This document shows, piece by piece, positions 730-17,972 of a stretch of DNA of 17,972 nt (positions are counted from its first letter, which is position 1; each line of letters starts with the position of its first letter). Source of the stretch: Dubosiella newyorkensis (lineage in GTDB: Bacteria > Bacillota_I > Bacilli_A > Erysipelotrichales > Erysipelotrichaceae). The stretch covers positions 1-17,972 of the forward strand of contig NZ_MPKA01000077.1 of NCBI RefSeq assembly GCF_001945605.1, given 5' to 3'. The notes under the pieces were generated by a model that ran no database searches, was not told the DNA's origin, and saw nothing but the letters and a program-made list of their open reading frames with translations. A program made the translations under genes and the position numbers.

Positions 730-764
730 TTTAACAGCTTTAATAGATGAATAGGAGGATAATT

Positions 765-1904
765 ATGGAACAGAATAATATGCTCGCAATGATTCTTGCG
801 GGTGGACGCGGTACGCGATTATTCGATCTGACAAAAAAGACAGCGAAGCCGGCTGTTTACTTTGGCGGAAAGTACAGGATCATCGACTTTCCGATTAGTA
901 ACTGCGCGAATTCGAATATCAATGTCGTTGGTGTATTGACGCAATACGAGCCTGTTGAGCTAAACGCTTACGCTGGTGCTGGGCAGCGTTGGGGTCTAGA
1001 CACTAGAGGCAGTGGGGTTTATGTTCTTCCGCCAAGCGAAAAAGACGGAACGAAATTTGATGTATATAGAGGAACAGCGGATGCGATCACGCAAAATATC
1101 GAGTTCATCGATAAATTCAATCCAGAATACGTATTGATCCTTTCTGGAGACCACATTTATAAAATGGATTACGATAAGATGCTTTCGGCACATAAAGCCA
1201 ATGCGGCCGACGCGACGATCGCGGTCTTGCAAGTGCCTTGGAAAGAAGCGAGCCGCTTTGGAATCATGGAAATCGATGATCAAAGCAACATCATTGCCTT
1301 CAAGGAAAAACCAAAAGAACCAAAAAGCAATTTGGCAAGCATGGGAATCTATATCTTCAACTGGAAGCTGCTGCGTAAAGAATTGTTGGATGATATGAAG
1401 CGGGAAGGAAGCTCGCACGATTTCGGTAACGATATCATCCCAAGTCTTCTCAACCAAGGAAAACACCTTTCCGTCTACCAATTCGAAGGCTATTGGAAAG
1501 ATGTTGGAACGATCGATTCATTGTGGGAAGCCAACATGGATCTGCTCAACAAGAACAACGAGCTCGACCTCGACGATCCAAATTGGAAGATCTATACTTC
1601 GGACATTCCTTCGCTTCCACACTATGTTGGTCCAAATGGAAAAGTAGAACATTGCTATATCAACCAAGGCGCTGTGATCTACGGTACGGCAAAAGACTCG
1701 GTTCTTTTCAATAATGTTGTGATCGAAGAAGGCGCGGATGTGCAACAATCTGTTTTGATGCCAGGCGTGCATGTGGGCGCGGGCGCTAAAGTGTATCGGG
1801 CCATCGTTGCAGAAAATGTGAAGATCGATCCAGAAGCGGTCGTATCGGATCCTGACAGCAAAGAGATCGCGCTCGTTGCCAAAAGGGTCAAGAAAGGGGA
1901 ATAG
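765..1904 (+). CDS. glgC: glucose-1-phosphate adenylyltransferase (catalytic subunit)
   Basis: Track ORF 747..1904. I prefer the start at ATG 765 ([19 protein letters not shown]) because AGGAGG at 753-758 lies 6 nt upstream. It has the LAGGRGTRL nucleotide-binding motif, KPAV.FGG.YRIIDF, and a C-terminal left-handed beta-helix-like repeat region. Confidence 0.95.
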
Positions 1905-1916
1905 AGGTGAGTCAGT

Positions 1917-3032
1917 ATGTTTAATGCATTAGGAATCATAGCTTACAACAACACCAATATTTATATCGAAGGATTGGAAAAGTATCGTCCAATCGCGGCG
2001 TTCAACTTCATCGGGCGCTATCGTTTAGTCGACTTTCCGATTTCCAATATGACAAATTCTGGTATGTGGGATATCGATATTTATGTCAACGGAAATCCAA
2101 AAGTTTTATTCGAACACATTGGTTCAGGCCGTCACTATAACATCAACTCGAAGCATGGCCATTTAGGATTGATCCCTGTCTTCCCAGATGGAACACGTGC
2201 CAACGCGGTGCCGGATGTTGAAATGTATTACGACAATCTCGTTGATATCGAAAACGATCCAAACGACTATGTGATCATCGCACCGGTCAACTTTATTTAT
2301 AAAGCCAACTATTCGGATCTTCTCGATCAGCACGTCGCTAGCGGAGCGGATATTTCCATGCTCTATCAACGTATTGACGATGCCAAAGATAAATATCTGC
2401 ATTGCGATGTCTTGACGCTCAATAAACAAAAAGGCGTATTAGGGATCGAAGAAAATTTAGGCGCTTATAAAGTGCGCAATCTTTCTCTTGCCACTTATAT
2501 CATGTCGAAGGAAGTCTTCATCAATCTTGTAAAGAAGGCAAGAGCGACAAGCTCGATGTATTGGCTAAAAGATATCATCAATGACAGCTGCCCGGATATG
2601 GATATCCGCGCAATCAATTATAGAGGACGTATTTATCCGATCTACAACCAAGAATCATATTTCAAGAGCAACATGATGATGCTTCATGAAGACAATATGA
2701 AAGATTTCAGCGATGCGAACTGGCCGATCTATACTCGTACCTACGATTCAGCGCCTACGATCTATCTCAATGATGGAACGACTCGAAACACGTATGTTTC
2801 CAATGGTTGCCAAATTAGCGGCGAGATCACGAACTCGATCATTGGACGCGCTGTCAAGATTGGAAAGAACGCGAAAGTGGATGGCTGCATCATTCTTCCT
2901 GAAGCCGTTGTCGGAGATAACGCGAACTTGAAGAACTGCATTATCGATAAAGGAGCAAGGATCATCCATAAAAAAGATCTAGCGGGTACAGAAGAGTCGC
3001 CTCTGTATATCGGCAGAAGGGAGACTGTATAA
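1917..3032 (+). CDS. glgD: glucose-1-phosphate adenylyltransferase regulatory/non-catalytic subunit GlgD
   Basis: This 371-aa GlgC paralogue (YRLVDFPISNM) lacks the GGxGxRL motif, as GlgD of Firmicutes does. It lies directly between glgC and glgA. An RBS GAGGTGAG lies upstream. Confidence 0.88.
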   Translation: MFNALGIIAYNNTNIYIEGLEKYRPIAAFNFIGRYRLVDFPISNMTNSGMWDIDIYVNGNPKVLFEHIGSGRHYNINSKHGHLGLIPVFPDGTRANAVPDVEMYYDNLVDIENDPNDYVIIAPVNFIYKANYSDLLDQHVASGADISMLYQRIDDAKDKYLHCDVLTLNKQKGVLGIEENLGAYKVRNLSLATYIMSKEVFINLVKKARATSSMYWLKDIINDSCPDMDIRAINYRGRIYPIYNQESYFKSNMMMLHEDNMKDFSDANWPIYTRTYDSAPTIYLNDGTTRNTYVSNGCQISGEITNSIIGRAVKIGKNAKVDGCIILPEAVVGDNANLKNCIIDKGARIIHKKDLAGTEESPLYIGRRETV

Positions 3033-4474
3033 TGGCTTCGATTTTAATGGTCGCATCCGAAGGACTTCCTTTTGTTAAAACAGGTGGTCTTGCGGACGTC
3101 GTTGGTTCGCTTCCTGCCGCTCTTTCTGAGATCGGCCACGAAGTGAAAGTCGTTTTGCCTCTTTATAAAAAGATCGCGGAAAACAACTTTCAAGATTTGA
3201 CGCTTTGTGCAGATTATACAGTTTCGATCAATTATCATGAGGTTCCAGTGCGCATTTACTCGCAAACGATCGATAAGGTCGCTTACTTCTTCGTTCAGCA
3301 TCAAGGCTATTTCGAACGCGACGCCTTGTATGGCTATGAAGATGATGGAGAACGTTTCGCTTATTTCCAAAAGGCTGTGATTGAAATGCTCAATCAGCTC
3401 AACTATTGGCCAAATATTATCCATTGCCATGATTGGCAATCAGGAATGATCCCTTGCATGATCAAAGAAACGCACGATTTTGATCCTCGGTATCGCCAAA
3501 TCCGTTTCGTCTATACGATCCACAATTTGGCGTTCCAAGGAAATTTTGGGCCTCAAATGCTCGATTCGTGCCTTGGTCTTCCATACTATTTGCTCGATAA
3601 TGGAAACGTTCGCTATGATGGCGGTATTTCCTTCATGAAATCGGGTATCTTGTATTCCGATAAGATCACGACGGTTTCCCCTACATATTCACAAGAGATC
3701 TTGACTCCTCAATATGGCGAACATTTGGAACTTGTTTTGAATATGCGCAAATACGACTTGTGGGGTATCGTAAACGGTATCGATACGAAGAACTGGAATC
3801 CTAAGACCGATCCAGATATCCCATATCATTTCGACAAGGTTAATTTGAAGGCTGGAAAAGCATTGGATAAGGCTTCTTTGCAAGCTGAGCTCGGTTTAGA
3901 GCAAAATCCAGATGTGATGCTTGTCGGTGTCGTTTCTCGTTTGACTTGGCAAAAAGGCTTCTACTTGATGATGGAGCAATTGAGCGCGTTTGCCAACGCT
4001 CCGATCCAGCTTGCGATTTTAGGCAGCGGTGAAAGCCAGATCGAGGAAGCGTTCCGTAATTTGGAAAACGCCAATAAAGGAAAGATCGCATTCTATAAAG
4101 GATACAACGAAGCGCTGGCGCATCGGATTTATGCGGGTTCCGACTTATTCTTGATGCCTAGCTTGTTCGAGCCGTGCGGCTTATCGCAGCTTTGCTCATT
4201 GCGTTATGGAACTTTGCCACTTGTTCGTGAAACGGGTGGTTTGAAAGATACGGTGGATCCATACAACGAGTACGATAAGAGCGGAAACGGTTTCTCTTTC
4301 GCGGCTTATAATGCGCAAGATCTCGTTCATACTCTGTACTACGCGACAGACGTATACTATAACCGCAAAGAAGACTGGGATACATTGCAGACGAATGCGA
4401 TGAATACGGATGTATCGTGGGAAAACAGCGCCCGGACTTATTCATTGCTCTATAACGAATTGATGAGTCAATGA
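3032..4474 (+). CDS. glgA: glycogen synthase (ADP-glucose type, GT5)
   Basis: 480 aa with the N-terminal KTGGLADVVGSLP motif and a C-terminal PSLFEPCGLSQL..LRYGT.P.VRETGGL motif. The start overlaps the glgD stop (TAATG), suggesting translational coupling. Confidence 0.95.
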   Translation: MASILMVASEGLPFVKTGGLADVVGSLPAALSEIGHEVKVVLPLYKKIAENNFQDLTLCADYTVSINYHEVPVRIYSQTIDKVAYFFVQHQGYFERDALYGYEDDGERFAYFQKAVIEMLNQLNYWPNIIHCHDWQSGMIPCMIKETHDFDPRYRQIRFVYTIHNLAFQGNFGPQMLDSCLGLPYYLLDNGNVRYDGGISFMKSGILYSDKITTVSPTYSQEILTPQYGEHLELVLNMRKYDLWGIVNGIDTKNWNPKTDPDIPYHFDKVNLKAGKALDKASLQAELGLEQNPDVMLVGVVSRLTWQKGFYLMMEQLSAFANAPIQLAILGSGESQIEEAFRNLENANKGKIAFYKGYNEALAHRIYAGSDLFLMPSLFEPCGLSQLCSLRYGTLPLVRETGGLKDTVDPYNEYDKSGNGFSFAAYNAQDLVHTLYYATDVYYNRKEDWDTLQTNAMNTDVSWENSARTYSLLYNELMSQ

Positions 4475-14883: not shown

Positions 14884-15474
14884 ATGGAACAAGAAAATAT
14901 TTATGAGCTCATCTATCTTTATTTTTTGAAAGATGATGAAGCGATCGCTCGTTTGATCGAGTATTATCGGCCACTCGTCTATCGGCTCTTAAAAGAAAAA
15001 AGATCATTTTCTAGAACGCAGGATGGATGGTTCGAAGATCGTTTGGCGTTGGCGGATACGGTGCTGCTCGATTGTTTAGAATCGTATCGTCCTTATCAGA
15101 ATATTCCTTTTACCGTTTATTATAAGAGCGCCCTGCAAAATAAATTGATTGATGAAGGAAAGTATGAACAGCGGCATTCGCTCAACTATCATTTTGATGT
15201 GGTTTCCCTTGATCGAAAAGTCAAAGAAGATGGTGTGACCCAATATGTCGATCTGATCGCCGATCCACAAGCAGAGCATGCGAAAAACACATTGATCAAA
15301 GACTGGATCGATTCTTTGCAGGAACAAAAGCTCTTTTCTGCAGAAGATCTCGAAGTGATCAAGCTCAAGGCGGAAGGGTATAAGCAATCCGAAATCAGTC
15401 GCATGACAGGAAAATCCCGTAAATATATCCGGAAAGTGCTCGATCAATTCAAAAATTGGTATCTTAACAATTGA
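14884..15474 (+). CDS. sigH: sigma-70 family alternative sigma factor, SigH/ComX-like by size and synteny
   Basis: 196 aa. It has a region-2-like segment (YRPLVYRLL..., FTVYYKSALQNKLID) and a C-terminal region-4 HTH (LSAEDLEVIKLKAEGYKQSEISRMTGKSRKYIRKVL). The order cysS-mrnC-rlmB-(yacP)-sigH is conserved in Bacilli. There is no obvious Shine-Dalgarno, and the start lies 6 nt after the rlmB stop. Confidence 0.65.
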   Translation: MEQENIYELIYLYFLKDDEAIARLIEYYRPLVYRLLKEKRSFSRTQDGWFEDRLALADTVLLDCLESYRPYQNIPFTVYYKSALQNKLIDEGKYEQRHSLNYHFDVVSLDRKVKEDGVTQYVDLIADPQAEHAKNTLIKDWIDSLQEQKLFSAEDLEVIKLKAEGYKQSEISRMTGKSRKYIRKVLDQFKNWYLNN

Positions 15475-15520
15475 TAGAAGATAAGAGGATATCGATCTGG
15501 ATTCAAGAGATGATTTACAA

Positions 15521-15566
15521 AAAGAGTGCTAAGGAAACGGTGTAAACCGGTATCTTAGCACTCTTT
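15521..15566. terminator. bidirectional terminator between the sigH-like gene and the convergent regulator gene
   Basis: A 13-bp perfect stem AAAGAGTGCTAAG ... CTTAGCACTCTTT contains an inner CGG/CCG sub-stem. T-rich tracts lie on both strands' downstream sides. Confidence 0.7.
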
Positions 15567-15624
15567 TATTTTTCTTATAATAGAATAATTATGAAGCGAT
15601 AGCGAATAAGACTTGTGCATTTCT

Positions 15625-16929
15625 TCAGTGAAAGGCATTATTTAATTTTAAATACTGGATCAGTTTCTCTTGTAAAACAATGACCTGCTCCAAATCATTT
15701 TGTTGTCGATAGTAATCGATCAGCAAGCTGTAAAATGGAATTTCCAGCTCTATCGCTCTGTAAAAAGGCAGCAAAGATGTAATTTGAAATTCCAGATCGA
15801 ATACGTCCAGTTCCTGATTCAACACTTTGATCATCAGCTGCATGAACAGTTTGATCGGTAGGGCACGATCCTCTTTCCTCTCCTGGTCAATGAATTCCTG
15901 CGCAAAGTTTTTGCATTGATCAAATCGTTTCAATCGATAGCTGGAAAAAACCAATACGATATAAATATCCGGAAAAGAACTGCCAAGCTCTCTGGATCTC
16001 ATGGCATATTCAAGCGCCTGTTCATCTTTTTCCTGAATGAACAGGCACCAGGAAAAATTATCGTAAAGAGATGTTAAGATTTGATGATCGATGACCTGCT
16101 CTTTATTTACTGATAAATTTGTAAAAATCTCGATCGCTTTCGAATAGATCCTGAGTTTTCGATATAGTATCCCTTCGTTCATTTGTACCGTTAAGATTCG
16201 TCGATATGCGCCCGCTTGTTGAAGATGCTCTTTGCAGTTTTTTACAAGTTCAAGTGCCTGCATCGGTTTATTTAAATCATCAAGTCGGTACATTAAATGG
16301 TATTCGATCAAACCAATCAGTCCATGATGATCGATCTGCCGCGCACAGCGAAGCGCTTTTTGAAGATATTGAATTTGAGATCCGATCACATCAAGATCTA
16401 TCGCATCCTCTATGATCCCGCACAGATCATAGAGGATCGATACGTAGTATTCACTTACAAAATATTGTGAATCAATAATTTTTTTGATATCTTCTGCTGT
16501 TCCTGTATTTTGGAAAAGATCATAAAACGATTCCACGATTTTATAATGAAAATACGCAAAAGAATGCTTATTATTTTCCTGATCGAGATAAATTTTAATT
16601 TCATCCAGCTTTTTAAAATAGGAAAGATGGATAAAATCTTGTACGCAGCGATCGATCCATTGTTCCGCTTCCTCTAATTGCGCAATTTTTCTATTGAATT
16701 TATAATCCGGATCATACTTCTCAAAATATTCAATCGCATGATTAAACAGATCCACATCCATATTCGCCTGTCCAGACTCCATTCTTGACAGTGAAGAATT
16801 GCTAACATGAAGAATTTTCGCCAGATCTTTCTGTGGGACTTCATAATATTTCCTCAATTCTTGAATATAAGCAGCATAAAAGCGATCTTTCCTATATTTT
16901 TCCTGATTTGTCTTTCTATAAATGGTCAT
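15625..16929 (-). CDS. XRE-type HTH plus helical-repeat (TPR-like) transcriptional regulator, RRNPP-family-like (NprR/PlcR/Rgg-type architecture)
   Basis: 434 aa. Residues ~20-70 (IQELRKYYEVPQKDLAKILHVSNSSLSRMESGQANMDVDLF) form a classic XRE/Cro HTH. The remaining ~360 aa are all-helical-looking, with repeated A/Y/L-patterned ~34-aa units (e.g. ALEYAMRSRELG, AIEIFTNL, YRAIELEIPFYSLLIDYY). The gene is more AT-rich than its neighbours, and no Shine-Dalgarno precedes the ATG. Confidence 0.72.
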   Translation of the reverse strand: MTIYRKTNQEKYRKDRFYAAYIQELRKYYEVPQKDLAKILHVSNSSLSRMESGQANMDVDLFNHAIEYFEKYDPDYKFNRKIAQLEEAEQWIDRCVQDFIHLSYFKKLDEIKIYLDQENNKHSFAYFHYKIVESFYDLFQNTGTAEDIKKIIDSQYFVSEYYVSILYDLCGIIEDAIDLDVIGSQIQYLQKALRCARQIDHHGLIGLIEYHLMYRLDDLNKPMQALELVKNCKEHLQQAGAYRRILTVQMNEGILYRKLRIYSKAIEIFTNLSVNKEQVIDHQILTSLYDNFSWCLFIQEKDEQALEYAMRSRELGSSFPDIYIVLVFSSYRLKRFDQCKNFAQEFIDQERKEDRALPIKLFMQLMIKVLNQELDVFDLEFQITSLLPFYRAIELEIPFYSLLIDYYRQQNDLEQVIVLQEKLIQYLKLNNAFH

Positions 16930-17021
16930 ATTTTATTTTTAGAATTTCGCAAAAAAACGATTCCCTTTCTTTTTAATAAATTTTATCATGAATATAACAA
17001 AGAAAGAAGGAAACAGGTTTT

Positions 17022-17165
17022 ATGAAAAGGAACTATATTAAATTCATTATGATGGTATGCGTCGGAGGTGTTCTTCTCTTGCCTGAGTATTGCCCTGAAC
17101 ACCATAAGGTTGATGATTGCTGGAAAACAAGCTTACCTTACGGCGATAATAAAGGGCATAAATAG
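17022..17165 (+). CDS. candidate 47-aa secreted pre-peptide (possible cognate signalling pro-peptide; below the ORF-track cutoff)
   Basis: ATG 17022..TAG 17165 encodes MKRNYIKFIMMVCVGGVLLLPEYCPEHHKVDDCWKTSLPYGDNKGHK. It has a basic N-terminus and hydrophobic core (signal-peptide-like) followed by a polar 26-aa tail with two Cys. AAGGA at 17007-17011 lies 10 nt upstream. It is divergent from the regulator (92-nt intergenic region) and 35 nt upstream of the next same-strand ORF. Confidence 0.45.
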   Translation: MKRNYIKFIMMVCVGGVLLLPEYCPEHHKVDDCWKTSLPYGDNKGHK

Positions 17166-17200
17166 TAAGGTTGTAAAAGATAGAAGGAGAATAATTCATT

Positions 17201-17890
17201 ATGGAAAAGTTTAAAATTAAAAATTTGTTCGTAAATATTTTTAGTATAATGGTGTGTCTATGCATGGGGATTTTATTAGTTACACCTGTTTCGGCTTCTG
17301 AAGAAAATATTCAGAATAGGAAAGAATCAAACCCAATCATTCTTGAGTTTAACAAGATTCAAGATAAAATAACCGAATCATTATCAATTGAAGGCAATCA
17401 TTATGTATATGATAAAAACTACATCAATCATTTATTTGATGAATTTGATATAAATACATTTAACGAAATCACAGGTAAAAAATATACATTAGAAAGCTTA
17501 AAATCAGATATTTACTATGCTTTAGATACATATATAATTTCTAATCAGATTTCCACATATGGAACTTATTACAATAGAAACGCAACAGAAGAAGGTTGGA
17601 ATTATTGGCGATGGTACATGAGTGAAGCTAAAACAAATGAAATGATTCAGTCTTTAACTAATATTAGTAATGGAGAATTAGGGACTTCGATTATTTTAGG
17701 TATAATTTCAGTACTTCCTGGAGCTGGAGTAATTGGATGGGCTGGGTTAACCGCAACTTTGAAAGCAGGATGGAATGGACTATATAGACAATCACTAATT
17801 AATGTTAACGGGCCAGGAGGAACCGTTACTGATATTAATAAATTTACTATATATATTGCCTTTAATAAGCCAAACAAAGTCGATCAATGA
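17201..17890 (+). CDS. hypothetical exported protein with a C-terminal glycine-zipper-like hydrophobic segment
   Basis: 229 aa. It has an N-terminal Sec signal (MEKFKIKNLFVNIFSIMVCLCMGILLVTPVSA|SEE). The mature part is N/Y/I-rich and aromatic-rich (GWNYWRWY). The C-terminal segment is TSIILGIISVLPGAGVIGWAGLTATLKAGW. The RBS GAAGGAG lies at 17183-17189. The gene is very AT-rich. I recognise no family. The last ~9 codons overlap a convergent transposase-like ORF, so the native C-terminus may be missing. Confidence 0.6.
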   Translation: MEKFKIKNLFVNIFSIMVCLCMGILLVTPVSASEENIQNRKESNPIILEFNKIQDKITESLSIEGNHYVYDKNYINHLFDEFDINTFNEITGKKYTLESLKSDIYYALDTYIISNQISTYGTYYNRNATEEGWNYWRWYMSEAKTNEMIQSLTNISNGELGTSIILGIISVLPGAGVIGWAGLTATLKAGWNGLYRQSLINVNGPGGTVTDINKFTIYIAFNKPNKVDQ

Positions 17891-17972
17891 CTTGGTACGG
17901 GCGCTGATTGACCCATTTTTCGAATTCTTTGACCCTCGCACTGATTTCCTGCTTTGTATGAATGAATACATT
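17862..17972 (-). CDS. C-terminal fragment of a transposase/integrase-like protein (enters from beyond the window end)
   Basis: Minus-strand reading from the window edge gives NVFIHTKQEISARVKEFEKWVNQRPYQVIDRLCLAY*, with the stop at 17864-17862. The ...W/L-x-N-x-RP-x-x-V/L... segment resembles the C-terminal region of DDE (IS30 / rve-type) transposases. G+C rises abruptly at about 17880. Only 36 codons are visible, so the call is weak. Confidence 0.3.
   Translation of the reverse strand, partial: NVFIHTKQEISARVKEFEKWVNQRPYQVIDRLCLAY

What the first reader, a model, noticed from the sequence alone, without database searches (positions are those of the whole stretch)
17022..17165. Unannotated 47-aa ORF: Phr/PapR/NprX-sized pre-peptide with two Cys in the polar tail and an internal GG
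**Seen**
- The sequence is MKRNYIKFIMMVCVGGVLLLPEYCPEHHKVDDCWKTSLPYGDNKGHK.
- It has a K/R-containing N-region and a ~15-aa hydrophobic core, followed by a charged, His-rich tail with C-x8-C spacing.
- It has a plausible RBS, is not in the supplied ORF track (under 60 aa) and would be missed by standard gene callers.

**Established**
- Known RRNPP pro-peptides such as PapR (48 aa), NprX (43 aa) and the Phr peptides (~40 aa) have this size and layout.
- The active 5-10-mer is usually cut from the C-terminal part.

**Alternative reading (inference)**
- The first 16 residues end in GG, so a double-glycine-type leader is conceivable. That would release a 31-aa Cys-pair peptide, i.e. bacteriocin-like or a disulfide-cyclised signal.
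- However, the leader is more hydrophobic than typical GG leaders, and no C39-peptidase ABC exporter is visible in the window.
Basis: partly seen in the sequence, partly recalled or inferred. Interest (0 to 1): 0.7.

Follow-up and report, generated by a model that had tools for sequence, protein, structure and literature searches.

The report
Candidate quorum-sensing peptide gene, Dubosiella
The 47-codon ORF is a real, conserved gene that sits back-to-back with a peptide-sensor-type (helix-turn-helix plus TPR) regulator in mouse-gut Erysipelotrichaceae, so it is most likely the secreted signal of an undescribed quorum-sensing cassette that switches on varied secreted-protein, antimicrobial-peptide and export genes.

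Summary
The ORF at 17022-17165 exists as described, in Dubosiella newyorkensis. An ORF of this size is not unusual in this AT-rich DNA. What makes it real is conservation: 23 variants of 46-51 aa share one layout. This is a basic N-end, a 12-17-aa hydrophobic stretch, an invariant Pro, then a 27-29-aa polar tail with the core C-x2-H-x3-D-x-C-W. dN/dS is 0.07-0.43 with synonymous sites near saturation.

In every testable locus the gene lies divergently about 90 bp from a 426-456-aa HTH+TPR regulator or its remnant (about 600 bp in one Allobaculum MAG). The regulator's predicted fold matches NprR, Rap and PlcR best. A conserved box (ATTTCGAAA...TTCCCTTTC...TATCAT) lies between the two genes.

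Downstream cargo differs between loci. Here it is a 229-aa secreted Gly-rich protein; elsewhere it is radical-SAM or ThiF peptide clusters, ABC exporters or PedC-like proteins.

Best reading: the pro-peptide of a new RRNPP-type subfamily (confidence about 0.6).

- The double-glycine-leader alternative is rejected.
- No canonical signal-peptidase site follows the hydrophobic stretch.
- The most conserved part is the Cys-pair core, not the C-terminus, so the mature signal is unknown.
- Secretion, re-import and receptor binding are inferred, not shown.

The parts
15625..16929 (-). 434-aa cytoplasmic regulator: N-terminal XRE-type HTH (about residues 19-56) followed by an all-alpha TPR superhelix (about residues 83-432). 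Candidate peptide receptor.
   Evidence: Pfam gives HTH_3 E=1e-4 and a weak TPR_12 hit. The AF2 model has pLDDT 90.2. Foldseek top PDB hits are NprR apo and NprR-NprX, phi3T Rap, RapI/F and PlcR. 20 homologues at 37-99% identity.
16944..16969 (+). Conserved intergenic box ATTTCGCAAAAAAACGATTCCCTTTC, with an imperfect dyad GAAT...ATTC. Candidate operator overlapping the -35 position of the peptide promoter.
   Evidence: Present exactly once per cassette in 20 of 35 loci. It always lies between the regulator and the peptide gene, and is kept in loci that have lost the peptide. Binding by the regulator is inferred.
16984..16989 (+). TATCAT, a conserved -10-like hexamer 32 nt upstream of the peptide start codon.
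   Evidence: Near-invariant column block in alignment A4. No full sigma-70 consensus promoter was found in the intergenic region by the scan. This fits an activator-dependent promoter but does not prove one.
17006..17011 (+). Ribosome-binding site GAAGGA, 10 nt before the ATG.
   Evidence: Read directly from the sequence. AAAGGA/AAGGA is conserved at the same place in the related loci.
17022..17081 (+). Peptide residues 1-20: basic n-region (MKRNYIK) and 13-aa hydrophobic stretch (FIMMVCVGGVLLL). Export signal or signal-anchor.
   Evidence: The same layout occurs in all 23 family members, with a charge of +2 to +4 (mostly +3/+4) and a hydrophobic stretch of 12-17 aa. AF2 predicts a helix at residues 3-19.
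17082..17123 (+). Peptide residues 21-34: conserved core PEYCPEHHKVDDCW (P21, C24, H27, D31, C33, W34).
   Evidence: Invariant or near-invariant across the family. It is the most conserved segment at 73% mean pairwise identity.
17124..17165 (+). Peptide residues 35-47 (KTSLPYGDNKGHK) plus stop: variable C-terminal tail with a conserved Gly41.
   Evidence: The least conserved segment at 48%. It carries the within-species substitutions L38S and H46Q.
17201..17890 (+). 229-aa cargo gene. It has a canonical signal peptide (VSA|SEE) and a C-terminal Gly-rich hydrophobic domain. It is probably co-transcribed with the peptide gene: the gap is 35 nt, it has its own RBS, and no terminator-like site lies between them.
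   Evidence: No Pfam, NCBIfam or PDB sequence match. No terminator-like site. Homologues follow the peptide gene in L001 and L013.
17849..17972 (-). End of a strain-specific IS630-family insertion that replaces the last 13 codons of the cargo gene.
   Evidence: The same-strain contig L024 has a 349-aa DDE_3 transposase overlapping the cargo 3' end. The common allele ends ...NKFTSYYTVVRQTDFYV, whereas this strain ends ...NKFTIYIAFNKPNKVDQ. Strains L025 and L026 lack the IS.

Best explanation
The ORF encodes the pro-peptide of a two-gene cell-cell signalling cassette of the RRNPP type, in an accessory island of Dubosiella newyorkensis.

Proposed mechanism:
1. The 47-aa precursor is exported through its basic and hydrophobic N-terminus.
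2. It is cut outside or within the membrane. This releases all or part of the 27-aa polar region P21-K47, which carries the Cys24-x8-Cys33-Trp core.
3. The product accumulates with cell density and is re-imported.
4. It binds the TPR domain of the divergently encoded 434-aa HTH-TPR regulator.
5. The regulator acts at the conserved box at 16944-16969 next to a weak promoter. It switches on the operon that starts with the peptide gene (positive feedback) and continues into the cargo.

Here the cargo is a 229-aa secreted Gly-rich protein. In relatives it is a radical-SAM or ThiF peptide-modification cluster, an ABC exporter or a PedC-like oxidoreductase.

Shown:
- The gene is real and under purifying selection.
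- It is paired with the regulator.
- The regulator has the fold and architecture of RRNPP receptors.
- A conserved intergenic box exists.
- The cargo is interchangeable.

Inferred: export route, cleavage, identity of the mature signal, re-import, binding, and the direction of regulation.
For: Coding and selection:
- 23 variants of 46-51 aa share one layout.
- Pairwise pS is 0.5-0.8 against pN 0.15-0.35, giving dN/dS 0.07-0.43.

Pairing with the regulator:
- Regulator-first searches found the peptide divergently adjacent in L001, L009/10, L011, L013, L014/15, L018 and L019, and about 600 bp away in L005.
- Peptide-first searches found the regulator adjacent in L020-23, L025/26, L029, L031 and L032. 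Truncated regulator remnants are adjacent in L027 and L028.

Receptor:
- HTH plus TPR.
- AF2 model with pLDDT 90.
- Best PDB matches are NprR (5dbk, 4gpk; E=3e-6, TM 0.45-0.66), Rap and PlcR.
- A weak profile hit to phage Rap3T, E=0.015.

Family signature: the RRNPP signature in PMC10075063 requires a small neighbouring propeptide and a 250-500-aa TPR receptor.

Regulatory region: a conserved box occurs once per cassette.

Cargo:
- It varies while the pair stays constant.
- RRNPP systems next to RiPP clusters are a known theme (PMC10075063).

Within-species variation is concentrated in the peptide. There are 4 differences in 144 nt (3 non-synonymous) against 2 in 1945 nt of flanking genes, Fisher p=3e-4. 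This is as seen for pherotype-forming signals.
Against: - No canonical -3/-1 signal-peptidase site follows the hydrophobic stretch. The only rule-compatible site, V-G-G|V, lies inside it. SignalP could not be run.
- The polar part is long and its centre is strongly conserved, with two Cys, a His and Asp residues. This is unlike known linear 5-10-residue RRNPP pheromones.
- The regulator has no sequence-level match to any named RRNPP subfamily model. Generic TPR proteins (LGN, OGT) score nearly as well by fold.
- Orphan receptors exist (L002, L003/L017, L004/L016), as do intact peptide genes beside truncated receptors (L027, L028).
- A W34L variant is common in the species and is paired with a window-type receptor in L025.
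- AF2 gives no confident fold for the tail. A receptor-peptide co-fold could not be run.
- No Opp or other peptide transporter is in the window.
Confidence: 0.6

Rival explanations
1. A small exported or membrane-anchored Cys-pair protein that is co-regulated with the cargo but is not the regulator's ligand. It could be a signal-anchored peptide whose C-x2-H-x3-D-x-C motif binds a metal or forms a disulfide loop, serving as an accessory or sensing factor at the cell surface.
For: - No canonical cleavage site follows the hydrophobic stretch.
- The invariant C, H, D, C, W positions at fixed spacing look like a structural or metal-ligand motif.
- PedC-like thiol-disulfide oxidoreductases recur in related loci.
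- Intact peptide genes persist beside truncated regulators in L027 and L028.
Against: - The hydrophobic stretch is only 12-17 aa (13 here), which is short for a stable membrane anchor.
- The gene travels with the regulator, not with any particular cargo.
- The AF2 tail is low-confidence, so there is no sign of an autonomous fold.
- Within-species non-synonymous change hits W34 and residues 22 and 38. This is easier to reconcile with a specificity-evolving signal than with a fixed structural motif.
Confidence: 0.2
2. A ribosomally made antimicrobial peptide. It would be either a double-glycine-leader bacteriocin cut after G16, or a Sec-dependent class II bacteriocin with one disulfide.
For: - GG, GA or GS sits at the same position in 12 of 17 variants, and V-G-G|V satisfies the -3/-1 rule.
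- There is a Cys pair.
- Bacteriocin-type genes (ABC exporters, PedC-like proteins, RiPP enzymes) lie in related loci.
Against: - The GG becomes GD, WN, GF or GI in other variants.
- The leader is basic and hydrophobic, with no acidic residues and none of the conserved double-glycine-leader pattern.
- No C39 peptidase domain occurs in any neighbouring ABC transporter.
- The released part would be hydrophilic with a net charge of -2 to +1, not cationic or amphipathic.
- No immunity-like gene is consistently adjacent.
- The constant partner is the regulator.
Confidence: 0.05
3. A RiPP precursor that is the substrate of the radical-SAM enzymes seen downstream in related loci (for example thioether or other Cys cross-links). 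In this window it would be left as a remnant without its enzyme.
For: In L009/L010 and L020/L021 the 47-aa gene lies upstream of a 590-712-aa radical-SAM gene. The peptide has conserved Cys and Asp residues.
Against: - Most loci with an intact, selected peptide gene have no radical-SAM enzyme. These are the window, L001, L005, L011, L013, L014 and L018.
- The radical-SAM loci carry their own far more Cys-rich 70-aa candidate substrate.
- A hydrophobic, basic N-terminus is a secretion-type signal, not a cytoplasmic RiPP leader.
Confidence: 0.05
4. A type I toxin-like small hydrophobic membrane peptide, or a chance ORF with no product.
For: - Its size and its N-terminal hydrophobic helix with a charged tail resemble Hok/Fst-type toxins.
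- ORFs of this size are frequent by chance in this DNA.
Against: - Strong purifying selection is concentrated on the polar tail rather than the hydrophobic part.
- No RNA family or antisense element was detected.
- Synteny with the regulator is strict.
- A chance ORF is excluded by conserved length and frame at 30-50% nucleotide divergence.
Confidence: 0.03

Closest known systems
NprR-NprX (Bacillus cereus group)
   Same: - The receptor has the same size class (423 vs 434 aa) and architecture: N-terminal XRE-type HTH followed by a long TPR superhelix.
- It is the best structural match (5dbk, 4gpk).
- The pro-peptide is small (43 aa vs 47 aa) with an N-terminal export signal.
- The active part of NprX is internal rather than C-terminal (own knowledge). 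That would also fit a conserved internal core here.
   Different: - Sequence identity is only 14-18%, and there is no NprR hit by sequence profile.
- nprX lies downstream of nprR and co-oriented with it (own knowledge); here the genes are divergent.
- NprX is a linear heptapeptide signal without Cys.
- NprR also acts as a Spo0F phosphatase-like protein, for which there is no evidence here.
PlcR-PapR (Bacillus cereus group)
   Same: - An HTH+TPR activator with a 48-aa secreted pro-peptide.
- The regulator binds a palindromic box upstream of target promoters and autoinduces the peptide gene.
- Pherotype polymorphism occurs within the species (own knowledge).
- PlcR is among the fold hits (2qfc, 3u3w).
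   Different: - PlcR is shorter (285 aa, 5 TPR), and the fold match is weaker (TMq 0.33-0.35).
- The PapR signal is the C-terminal heptapeptide; here the C-terminus is the least conserved part.
Rgg-SHP systems controlling radical-SAM RiPP operons in streptococci (streptide-type loci)
   Same: - The small peptide gene is often divergent from its regulator.
- The N-terminus is basic then hydrophobic, without a SignalP-type cleavage site (PMC10075063).
- Control of an adjacent radical-SAM peptide cluster resembles L009 and L020.
- The first 16 residues here (MKK..hydrophobic..VGG) resemble whole SHP precursors (own knowledge).
   Different: - Rgg receptors are about 280 aa, with TPR-like repeats that sequence models do not recognise.
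- SHPs are about 22-24 aa, and the hydrophobic C-terminal octapeptide is the signal.
- Here 31 further residues follow the VGG, and they are the most conserved part.
Rap-Phr (Bacillus and its phages/plasmids)
   Same: The TPR domain fold is similar, and Rap3T is the only (weak) sequence-profile hit (8rst, E=0.015). The pro-peptide is a small secreted protein of about 40 aa.
   Different: - Rap proteins lack the HTH and act by protein-protein interaction.
- phr lies downstream and overlaps rap.
- The signal is a C-terminal penta- or hexapeptide.
TprA-PhrA (Streptococcus pneumoniae)
   Same: A peptide-responsive HTH-TPR-type regulator with an adjacent small secreted peptide gene, controlling a neighbouring antimicrobial-peptide (lantibiotic) cluster (own knowledge; reviewed in PMC7595303).
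   Different: It is a PlcR-like short receptor acting as a repressor relieved by the peptide. The peptide is a linear C-terminal signal. No sequence relation was detected here.

Membership tests
RRNPP-type quorum-sensing system (signature of PMC10075063) | Receptor about 250-500 aa | tested here: met
   434 aa here; homologues are 426-456 aa.
RRNPP-type quorum-sensing system (signature of PMC10075063) | Receptor carries a TPR-type peptide-binding domain | tested here: met
   - Weak Pfam TPR_12 hit (E=0.005, below the curated cut-off).
- TPR_2 and TPR_12 are precomputed on homologues.
- The AF2 model shows paired helices from residue 83 to 432.
- Best matches are the NprR, Rap and PlcR TPR domains.

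The feature is met at fold level and is marginal at sequence-model level.
RRNPP-type quorum-sensing system (signature of PMC10075063) | Small propeptide gene (10-100 aa) directly next to the receptor gene | tested here: met
   47 aa, 92 bp from the receptor start and divergent. The same arrangement is seen in all testable related loci.
RRNPP-type quorum-sensing system (signature of PMC10075063) | Propeptide is secreted (Sec/SPI tag by SignalP, or PptAB-type basic and hydrophobic N-terminus) | tested here: inconclusive
   - A basic n-region and a 12-17-aa hydrophobic stretch are present in all members.
- No -3/-1 site follows the stretch; the only candidate lies inside it.
- SignalP is not available here.
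RRNPP-type quorum-sensing system (signature of PMC10075063) | Mature peptide is re-imported and binds the receptor, changing its activity | not testable with these tools
No transporter gene is in the window. This needs binding and reporter experiments.
NprR subfamily | Sequence-level match to NprR (subfamily profile) and an nprX-like gene downstream, co-oriented | tested here: not met
   - The profile of 15 homologues does not retrieve NprR from PDB sequences at E<=1.
- Identity in the structural alignment is 14-18%.
- The peptide gene is divergent, not downstream.
Double-glycine-leader peptides (class II bacteriocins and pheromones exported by C39-ABC transporters) | Conserved leader ending in GG/GA/GS, with an acidic and hydrophobic consensus | tested here: not met
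   GG is replaced by GD, WN, GF, VG or GI in 5 of 17 variants. The leader has a +2 to +4 charge (mostly +3/+4) and no acidic residue.
Double-glycine-leader peptides (class II bacteriocins and pheromones exported by C39-ABC transporters) | Dedicated ABC transporter with an N-terminal C39 peptidase domain in the locus | tested here: not met
   There is none in the window. ABC transporters in related loci are 528-601 aa with ABC_membrane and ABC_tran only.
Bacterial lipoprotein | Lipobox [LVI][ASTVI][GAS]C at the end of the signal peptide | tested here: not met
   The residues before invariant Cys24 are P-x-[YFHDP] (PEY here), which is not a lipobox.
Radical-SAM RiPP precursor | Obligate co-occurrence with its modifying enzyme | tested here: not met
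   A radical-SAM gene is near the peptide in only 3 locus types (L009/10, L020/21, L022/23). It is absent from the window, L001, L005, L011, L013, L014 and L018.

The most novel reading that the evidence does not exclude
The signal is not a short linear peptide. It is the conserved 11-residue core C-P-E-H-H-K-V-D-D-C-W, or a longer piece containing it. This core would be held as a loop by a Cys24-Cys33 disulfide or by a bound metal (a Cys/His/Asp/Cys ligand set) and read by a cytoplasmic NprR-like TPR receptor.

That would be a structurally constrained pheromone class for RRNPP receptors. In mouse-gut Erysipelotrichaceae it would serve as a portable switch for interchangeable antimicrobial cargo, with pherotype-like variation inside one species.
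Probability: 0.15. Interest if true: 0.7.

Novelty: new member of a known kind. Interest (0 to 1): 0.45.

Why it matters
Dubosiella newyorkensis and its relatives are prominent mouse-gut commensals that are increasingly studied for their effects on the host. No peptide signalling system was found described for them in the paper library searched.

If the reading is right, this cassette is a density-dependent switch for secreted proteins and modified-peptide gene clusters that differ from strain to strain. That would make it a handle on competition within the gut community.

It would also add an RRNPP subfamily from outside Bacilli and Clostridia. Its pro-peptide has an unusual, strongly conserved Cys-pair core. 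This could widen the range of ligands these receptors are thought to read.

In practice, the regulator is mis-started in several RefSeq records (385 or 378 aa, losing the HTH), and the peptide is uncalled in this strain's record. The pair is therefore invisible in current annotation.

Tried and rejected
- **Double-glycine leader.** Rejected on the variability of the GG, the leader composition and the absence of C39 transporters.
- **Lipoprotein.** Rejected; there is no lipobox.
- **RiPP precursor for the neighbouring radical-SAM enzymes.** Rejected on co-occurrence.
- **RNA element instead of a gene.** Rfam found no match at E<=1 in 15400-17972.
- **Phage or viral origin.** The regulator has no match in 50,697 phage records, and the peptide has none in IMG/VR.
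- **Long homologues in cluster 1.** The cluster seemed to show 139-166-aa relatives of the peptide. Their sequences are unrelated, so it is a clustering artefact and not a truncation of a longer gene.
- **Conserved upstream ORF.** The intergenic box reads as MIKFIKKKGNRFFAKF on the regulator strand, and it is fused in frame to the regulator in L001, L009, L011 and L013. Stops interrupt it in the window, L014 and L018. I therefore treat the conservation as DNA-level (promoter/operator).
- **Operator search.** A first fixed-spacing search found nothing. A regex with flexible spacing found the box.
- **Family and structure searches.** Pfam, NCBIfam and PDB sequence searches gave nothing for the peptide or the 229-aa cargo.
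- **RRNPP_detector supplements.** They hold no Dubosiella, Erysipelotrich*, Allobaculum or Faecalibaculum entry.
Full report
**1. The observation**

The ORF is present as described.
- Window 17022-17165(+) translates to MKRNYIKFIMMVCVGGVLLLPEYCPEHHKVDDCWKTSLPYGDNKGHK plus a stop.
- GAAGGA lies 10 nt upstream of the ATG.
- The layout is a +3 n-region, a 13-aa hydrophobic stretch, a Pro, and a 27-aa polar tail with Cys24-x8-Cys33 and three His.

The ORF alone is not beyond chance. The surrounding 2.5 kb of AT-rich DNA holds 32 ORFs of 20 aa or more, several of them 47-72 aa.

Exact-sequence look-up places the window in Dubosiella newyorkensis (Erysipelotrichaceae). The identical 47-aa product is on record from about 100 contigs. 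However, it is not called in the NCBI record of this strain (L024). The claim that gene callers miss it is therefore only partly right.

**2. It is a real gene**

Homologues were found from three directions.
- *Word-indexed protein searches* gave five hits at 73-94% identity, one of them a frameshifted 54-aa version. A profile search added more distant hits, down to 34%.
- *A full HMM scan of 1.84 billion representatives* gave 13 hits at E<=1e-3. Nine are 47-73-aa proteins of the same kind (one being that frameshifted 54-aa version). Four are unrelated long eukaryote-like repeat proteins.
- *Translation of loci fetched through the neighbouring regulator* gave further members.

In total 23 variants of 46-51 aa share one architecture. 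P21, C24 and H27 are invariant, and D31, C33, W34 and G41 nearly so.

Nei-Gojobori comparisons of eight loci give pS 0.5-0.8 (near saturation) against pN 0.15-0.35. The resulting dN/dS is 0.07-0.43.

By region, the core (residues 21-34) is most conserved at 73% mean pairwise identity. The hydrophobic stretch is at 58% and the C-terminal 13 residues are lowest at 48%.

**3. The neighbour**

The ORF at 15625-16929(-) encodes a 434-aa protein.
- *Domains.* It has an XRE-type HTH (HTH_3 E=1e-4, just under the curated cut-off) and a weak TPR_12 hit.
- *Model.* An AlphaFold model built on 15 homologues is confident (pLDDT 90.2). It shows a five-helix HTH followed by paired helices from residue 83 to 432.
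- *Fold search.* Foldseek against the PDB puts NprR first, both apo and bound to NprX (E=3e-6, TM 0.45-0.66). Next come phage phi3T Rap, RapI/RapF and PlcR, but generic TPR proteins (LGN, OGT) are interleaved.
- *Sequence search.* Apart from HTH matches, the only RRNPP-family hit is a marginal one to Rap3T (E=0.015), alongside weaker generic TPR (Fis1) matches; no named RRNPP subfamily model matches.

The protein therefore has the architecture and fold of RRNPP receptors but is not a member of any described subfamily.

**4. The pairing**

*Starting from the regulator.* Eight genome loci and eleven metagenome or MAG loci were examined. The peptide gene lies divergently, about 25-95 bp from the called regulator start, in these loci:
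- Firmicutes bacterium M10-2 (L001, two copies);
- L009/L010, L011 and L013;
- a second, paralogous cassette of D. newyorkensis (L014/L015; regulator 50% identical);
- L018;
- L019 (regulator 37% identical).

In an Allobaculum MAG (L005) it lies about 600 bp away.

*Starting from the peptide.* The regulator is adjacent in L020-L023, L025/L026, L029, L031 and L032. Truncated regulator remnants are adjacent in L027 and L028. L030 ends at a contig edge.

*Decay in both directions.* Receptors occur without a usable peptide gene in Dubosiella muris L002 (MKN-stop), L003/L017 (N-terminus kept, the rest replaced) and L004/L016.

**5. The intergenic region**

An alignment of nine loci shows a block ATTTCG(A/C)AAA-N-TTCCCTTTC-N-TAAAT-N-TATCAT (window 16944-16989).
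- It occurs exactly once per cassette in 20 of 35 loci, and never elsewhere in them.
- It carries an imperfect dyad. This is clearest in L018 as TGGATTT-N6-AAATCCA.
- The TATCAT is a plausible -10. The -35 position falls inside the conserved box and is poor.
- The consensus scan finds no full sigma-70 promoter there, and no terminator between the peptide gene and the next gene.

I infer an activator-dependent promoter that drives the peptide gene and the cargo as one transcript. This is inference.

**6. The cargo**

| Locus | Genes downstream of the peptide gene |
|---|---|
| Window | 229-aa protein with a canonical signal peptide (VSA\|SEE) and a Gly-rich hydrophobic C-terminal domain; no family or PDB match |
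| L001, L013 | Homologues of the 229-aa protein, followed by an 85-aa multi-pass hydrophobic protein |
| L009/L010, L020/L021 | 590-712-aa radical-SAM enzyme, an 85-aa protein, a 70-aa very Cys-rich peptide and an ABC exporter |
| L018 | 56-aa acidic peptide and a ThiF-family enzyme |
| L011 | PedC-like oxidoreductase, a 230-aa Cys-rich secreted protein and an ABC exporter |
| L014 | Two unknown secreted proteins |
| L005 | C92-family amidase |

The constant unit is the regulator, the box and the peptide gene. The payload is interchangeable and mostly looks like secreted or antimicrobial-peptide machinery. RRNPP systems next to RiPP clusters are a documented theme (PMC10075063).

**7. Processing**

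A simple -3/-1 rule scan finds no signal-peptidase I site after the hydrophobic stretch. Pro follows Cys24, and bulky residues occupy the -1 position.

The only recurrent rule-compatible site is [VI]-G-[GSAT]|[VIT], eight residues before Cys24 and inside the hydrophobic stretch. It occurs in 14 of 17 variants. The same rule correctly finds VSA|SEE in the cargo protein.

Two routes therefore remain open:
- cleavage after G16, giving a 31-mer that starts VLLLP;
- no Sec-type cleavage, with release by another protease, as for SHP and PrgQ-type peptides (PMC10075063).

AlphaFold on the peptide alone gives a helix at residues 3-19 and a low-confidence tail. SignalP was not available.

**8. Within-species pattern**

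Strain L025 was compared with the window.

| Segment | Differences |
|---|---|
| Regulator | 2 in 1305 nt |
| Cargo | 0 in 640 nt |
| Peptide gene | 4 in 144 nt, three of them non-synonymous (E22A, W34L, L38S) |

The excess in the peptide gene gives Fisher p=3e-4. L025 carries the peptide allele of the more distant strain L026. It also has a 141-bp tandem duplication of the box and the regulator's 5' end, which looks like a recombination scar.

Concentrated non-synonymous change in the signal gene is what pherotype-forming systems show. It could also reflect decay, since the L026 cargo is frameshifted. This is left open.

**9. Interpretation**

The best explanation is a new subfamily of RRNPP-type signalling cassette, with this ORF as the pro-peptide (about 0.6).

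The main rival (about 0.2) is that the product is an exported or anchored Cys-pair mini-protein with another role. This is suggested by the missing cleavage site and by the fixed C-x2-H-x3-D-x-C-W spacing, which looks structural or metal-binding.

The following are disfavoured for the reasons given under rivals and membership tests:
- double-glycine-leader or Sec-dependent bacteriocin;
- RiPP precursor;
- lipoprotein;
- type I toxin;
- chance ORF.

**10. Novelty and score**

The kind of system is known, and many candidate subfamilies have already been predicted computationally. A specialist would not be very surprised by another.

I found no description of this family. The RRNPP_detector supplements contain no Dubosiella, Erysipelotrich*, Allobaculum or Faecalibaculum entry. 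Searches combining Dubosiella newyorkensis with 'quorum sensing' and 'bacteriocin' found nothing relevant.

The unusual pro-peptide and the interchangeable cargo in a much-studied mouse commensal give it moderate interest (0.45).

The most novel reading not excluded is a disulfide- or metal-constrained loop pheromone read by a cytoplasmic TPR receptor (probability about 0.15; interest if true 0.7).

Noticed in passing
window 17849-17972 (and L024 6662-7713): A strain-specific IS630-family element (349-aa DDE_3 transposase, minus strand) is inserted at the 3' end of the 229-aa cargo gene. It replaces the gene's last 13 codons. The common allele ends ...NKFTSYYTVVRQTDFYV; this strain ends ...NKFTIYIAFNKPNKVDQ. 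Strains L025 and L026 lack the IS.
   Followed up: partly
window 15625-16929 (-): RefSeq records of several D. newyorkensis strains start this regulator at internal Met codons (385, 380 or 378 aa, named 'hypothetical protein'). This removes the HTH at residues 19-56. Alignment of homologues shows conservation from about residue 8, so the 434-aa start, or one further upstream, is right. No Shine-Dalgarno sequence is evident before the 434-aa ATG.
   Followed up: partly
window 16940-16989, minus strand; L001 3935-4000: Read on the regulator's strand, the conserved intergenic box encodes MIKFIKKKGNRFFAKF-stop. The same stretch is fused in frame to the regulator in L001, L009, L011 and L013 (454-456-aa calls). 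It is interrupted by stops in the window, L014 and L018. Whether it is ever translated, as an upstream ORF or an N-terminal extension, is unknown.
   Followed up: partly
L025 2768-3000; L001 1730-2033: Duplications occur at the cassette. L025 has a 141-bp tandem repeat of the box plus the regulator's 5' end. M10-2 (L001) has a second identical peptide gene about 2 kb away, with a regulator N-terminal fragment and different downstream genes.
   Followed up: partly
window 14884-17972; L024, L025: The cassette (regulator, peptide, cargo, with or without the IS) sits between a sigma-70-family gene that follows cysS-mrnC-rlmB and the rpmG-secE-nusG genes. It therefore looks like an accessory insertion in a conserved housekeeping gene order.
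   Followed up: partly
protein cluster 1 (P0002, P0003, P0005 and others): The 90%-identity cluster holding the 47-aa peptide also holds unrelated 139-166-aa secreted D. newyorkensis proteins (MTIKLKKAFLLIASACF...). This appears to be a clustering artefact. A similar secreted protein follows the peptide gene in L028, so the two may sometimes be neighbours.
   Followed up: partly
L009 153-365 (-), L020 7418-7630 (+): A 70-aa peptide is extremely rich in Cys (MNSINACSTCDNSCGRNCHSGADNCEGACSVECISNCNNTNIGVCYNCANNCAATCAAKVG...). It lies next to a 590-712-aa radical-SAM enzyme, an 85-aa protein and an ABC exporter. This is a likely uncharacterised modified-peptide gene cluster under the cassette's control.
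   Followed up: no
L018 3-1213 (-): A 56-aa highly acidic peptide (…DDDVKNNQTFDKFEDLDDVDYKVEDIAFTYGEYRHM) is followed by a ThiF-family enzyme, downstream of the peptide gene. This is another candidate modified-peptide cluster.
   Followed up: no
L026 3180-3870; L027 2474-2908; L028 2464-2909: Decay is seen within D. newyorkensis populations. The cargo gene is split by a frameshift in L026. The regulator is truncated to 144 aa (L027) or to fragments (L028), while the peptide gene stays intact.
   Followed up: partly
window 747-4474: The upstream part of the window is ordinary housekeeping. It holds glycogen synthesis genes (two NTP_transferase/hexapeptide proteins and a starch-synthase-type glycosyltransferase), HPr, phosphoglucomutase, GAPDH and cysS. 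None is a peptide transporter or protease relevant to the cassette.
   Followed up: yes
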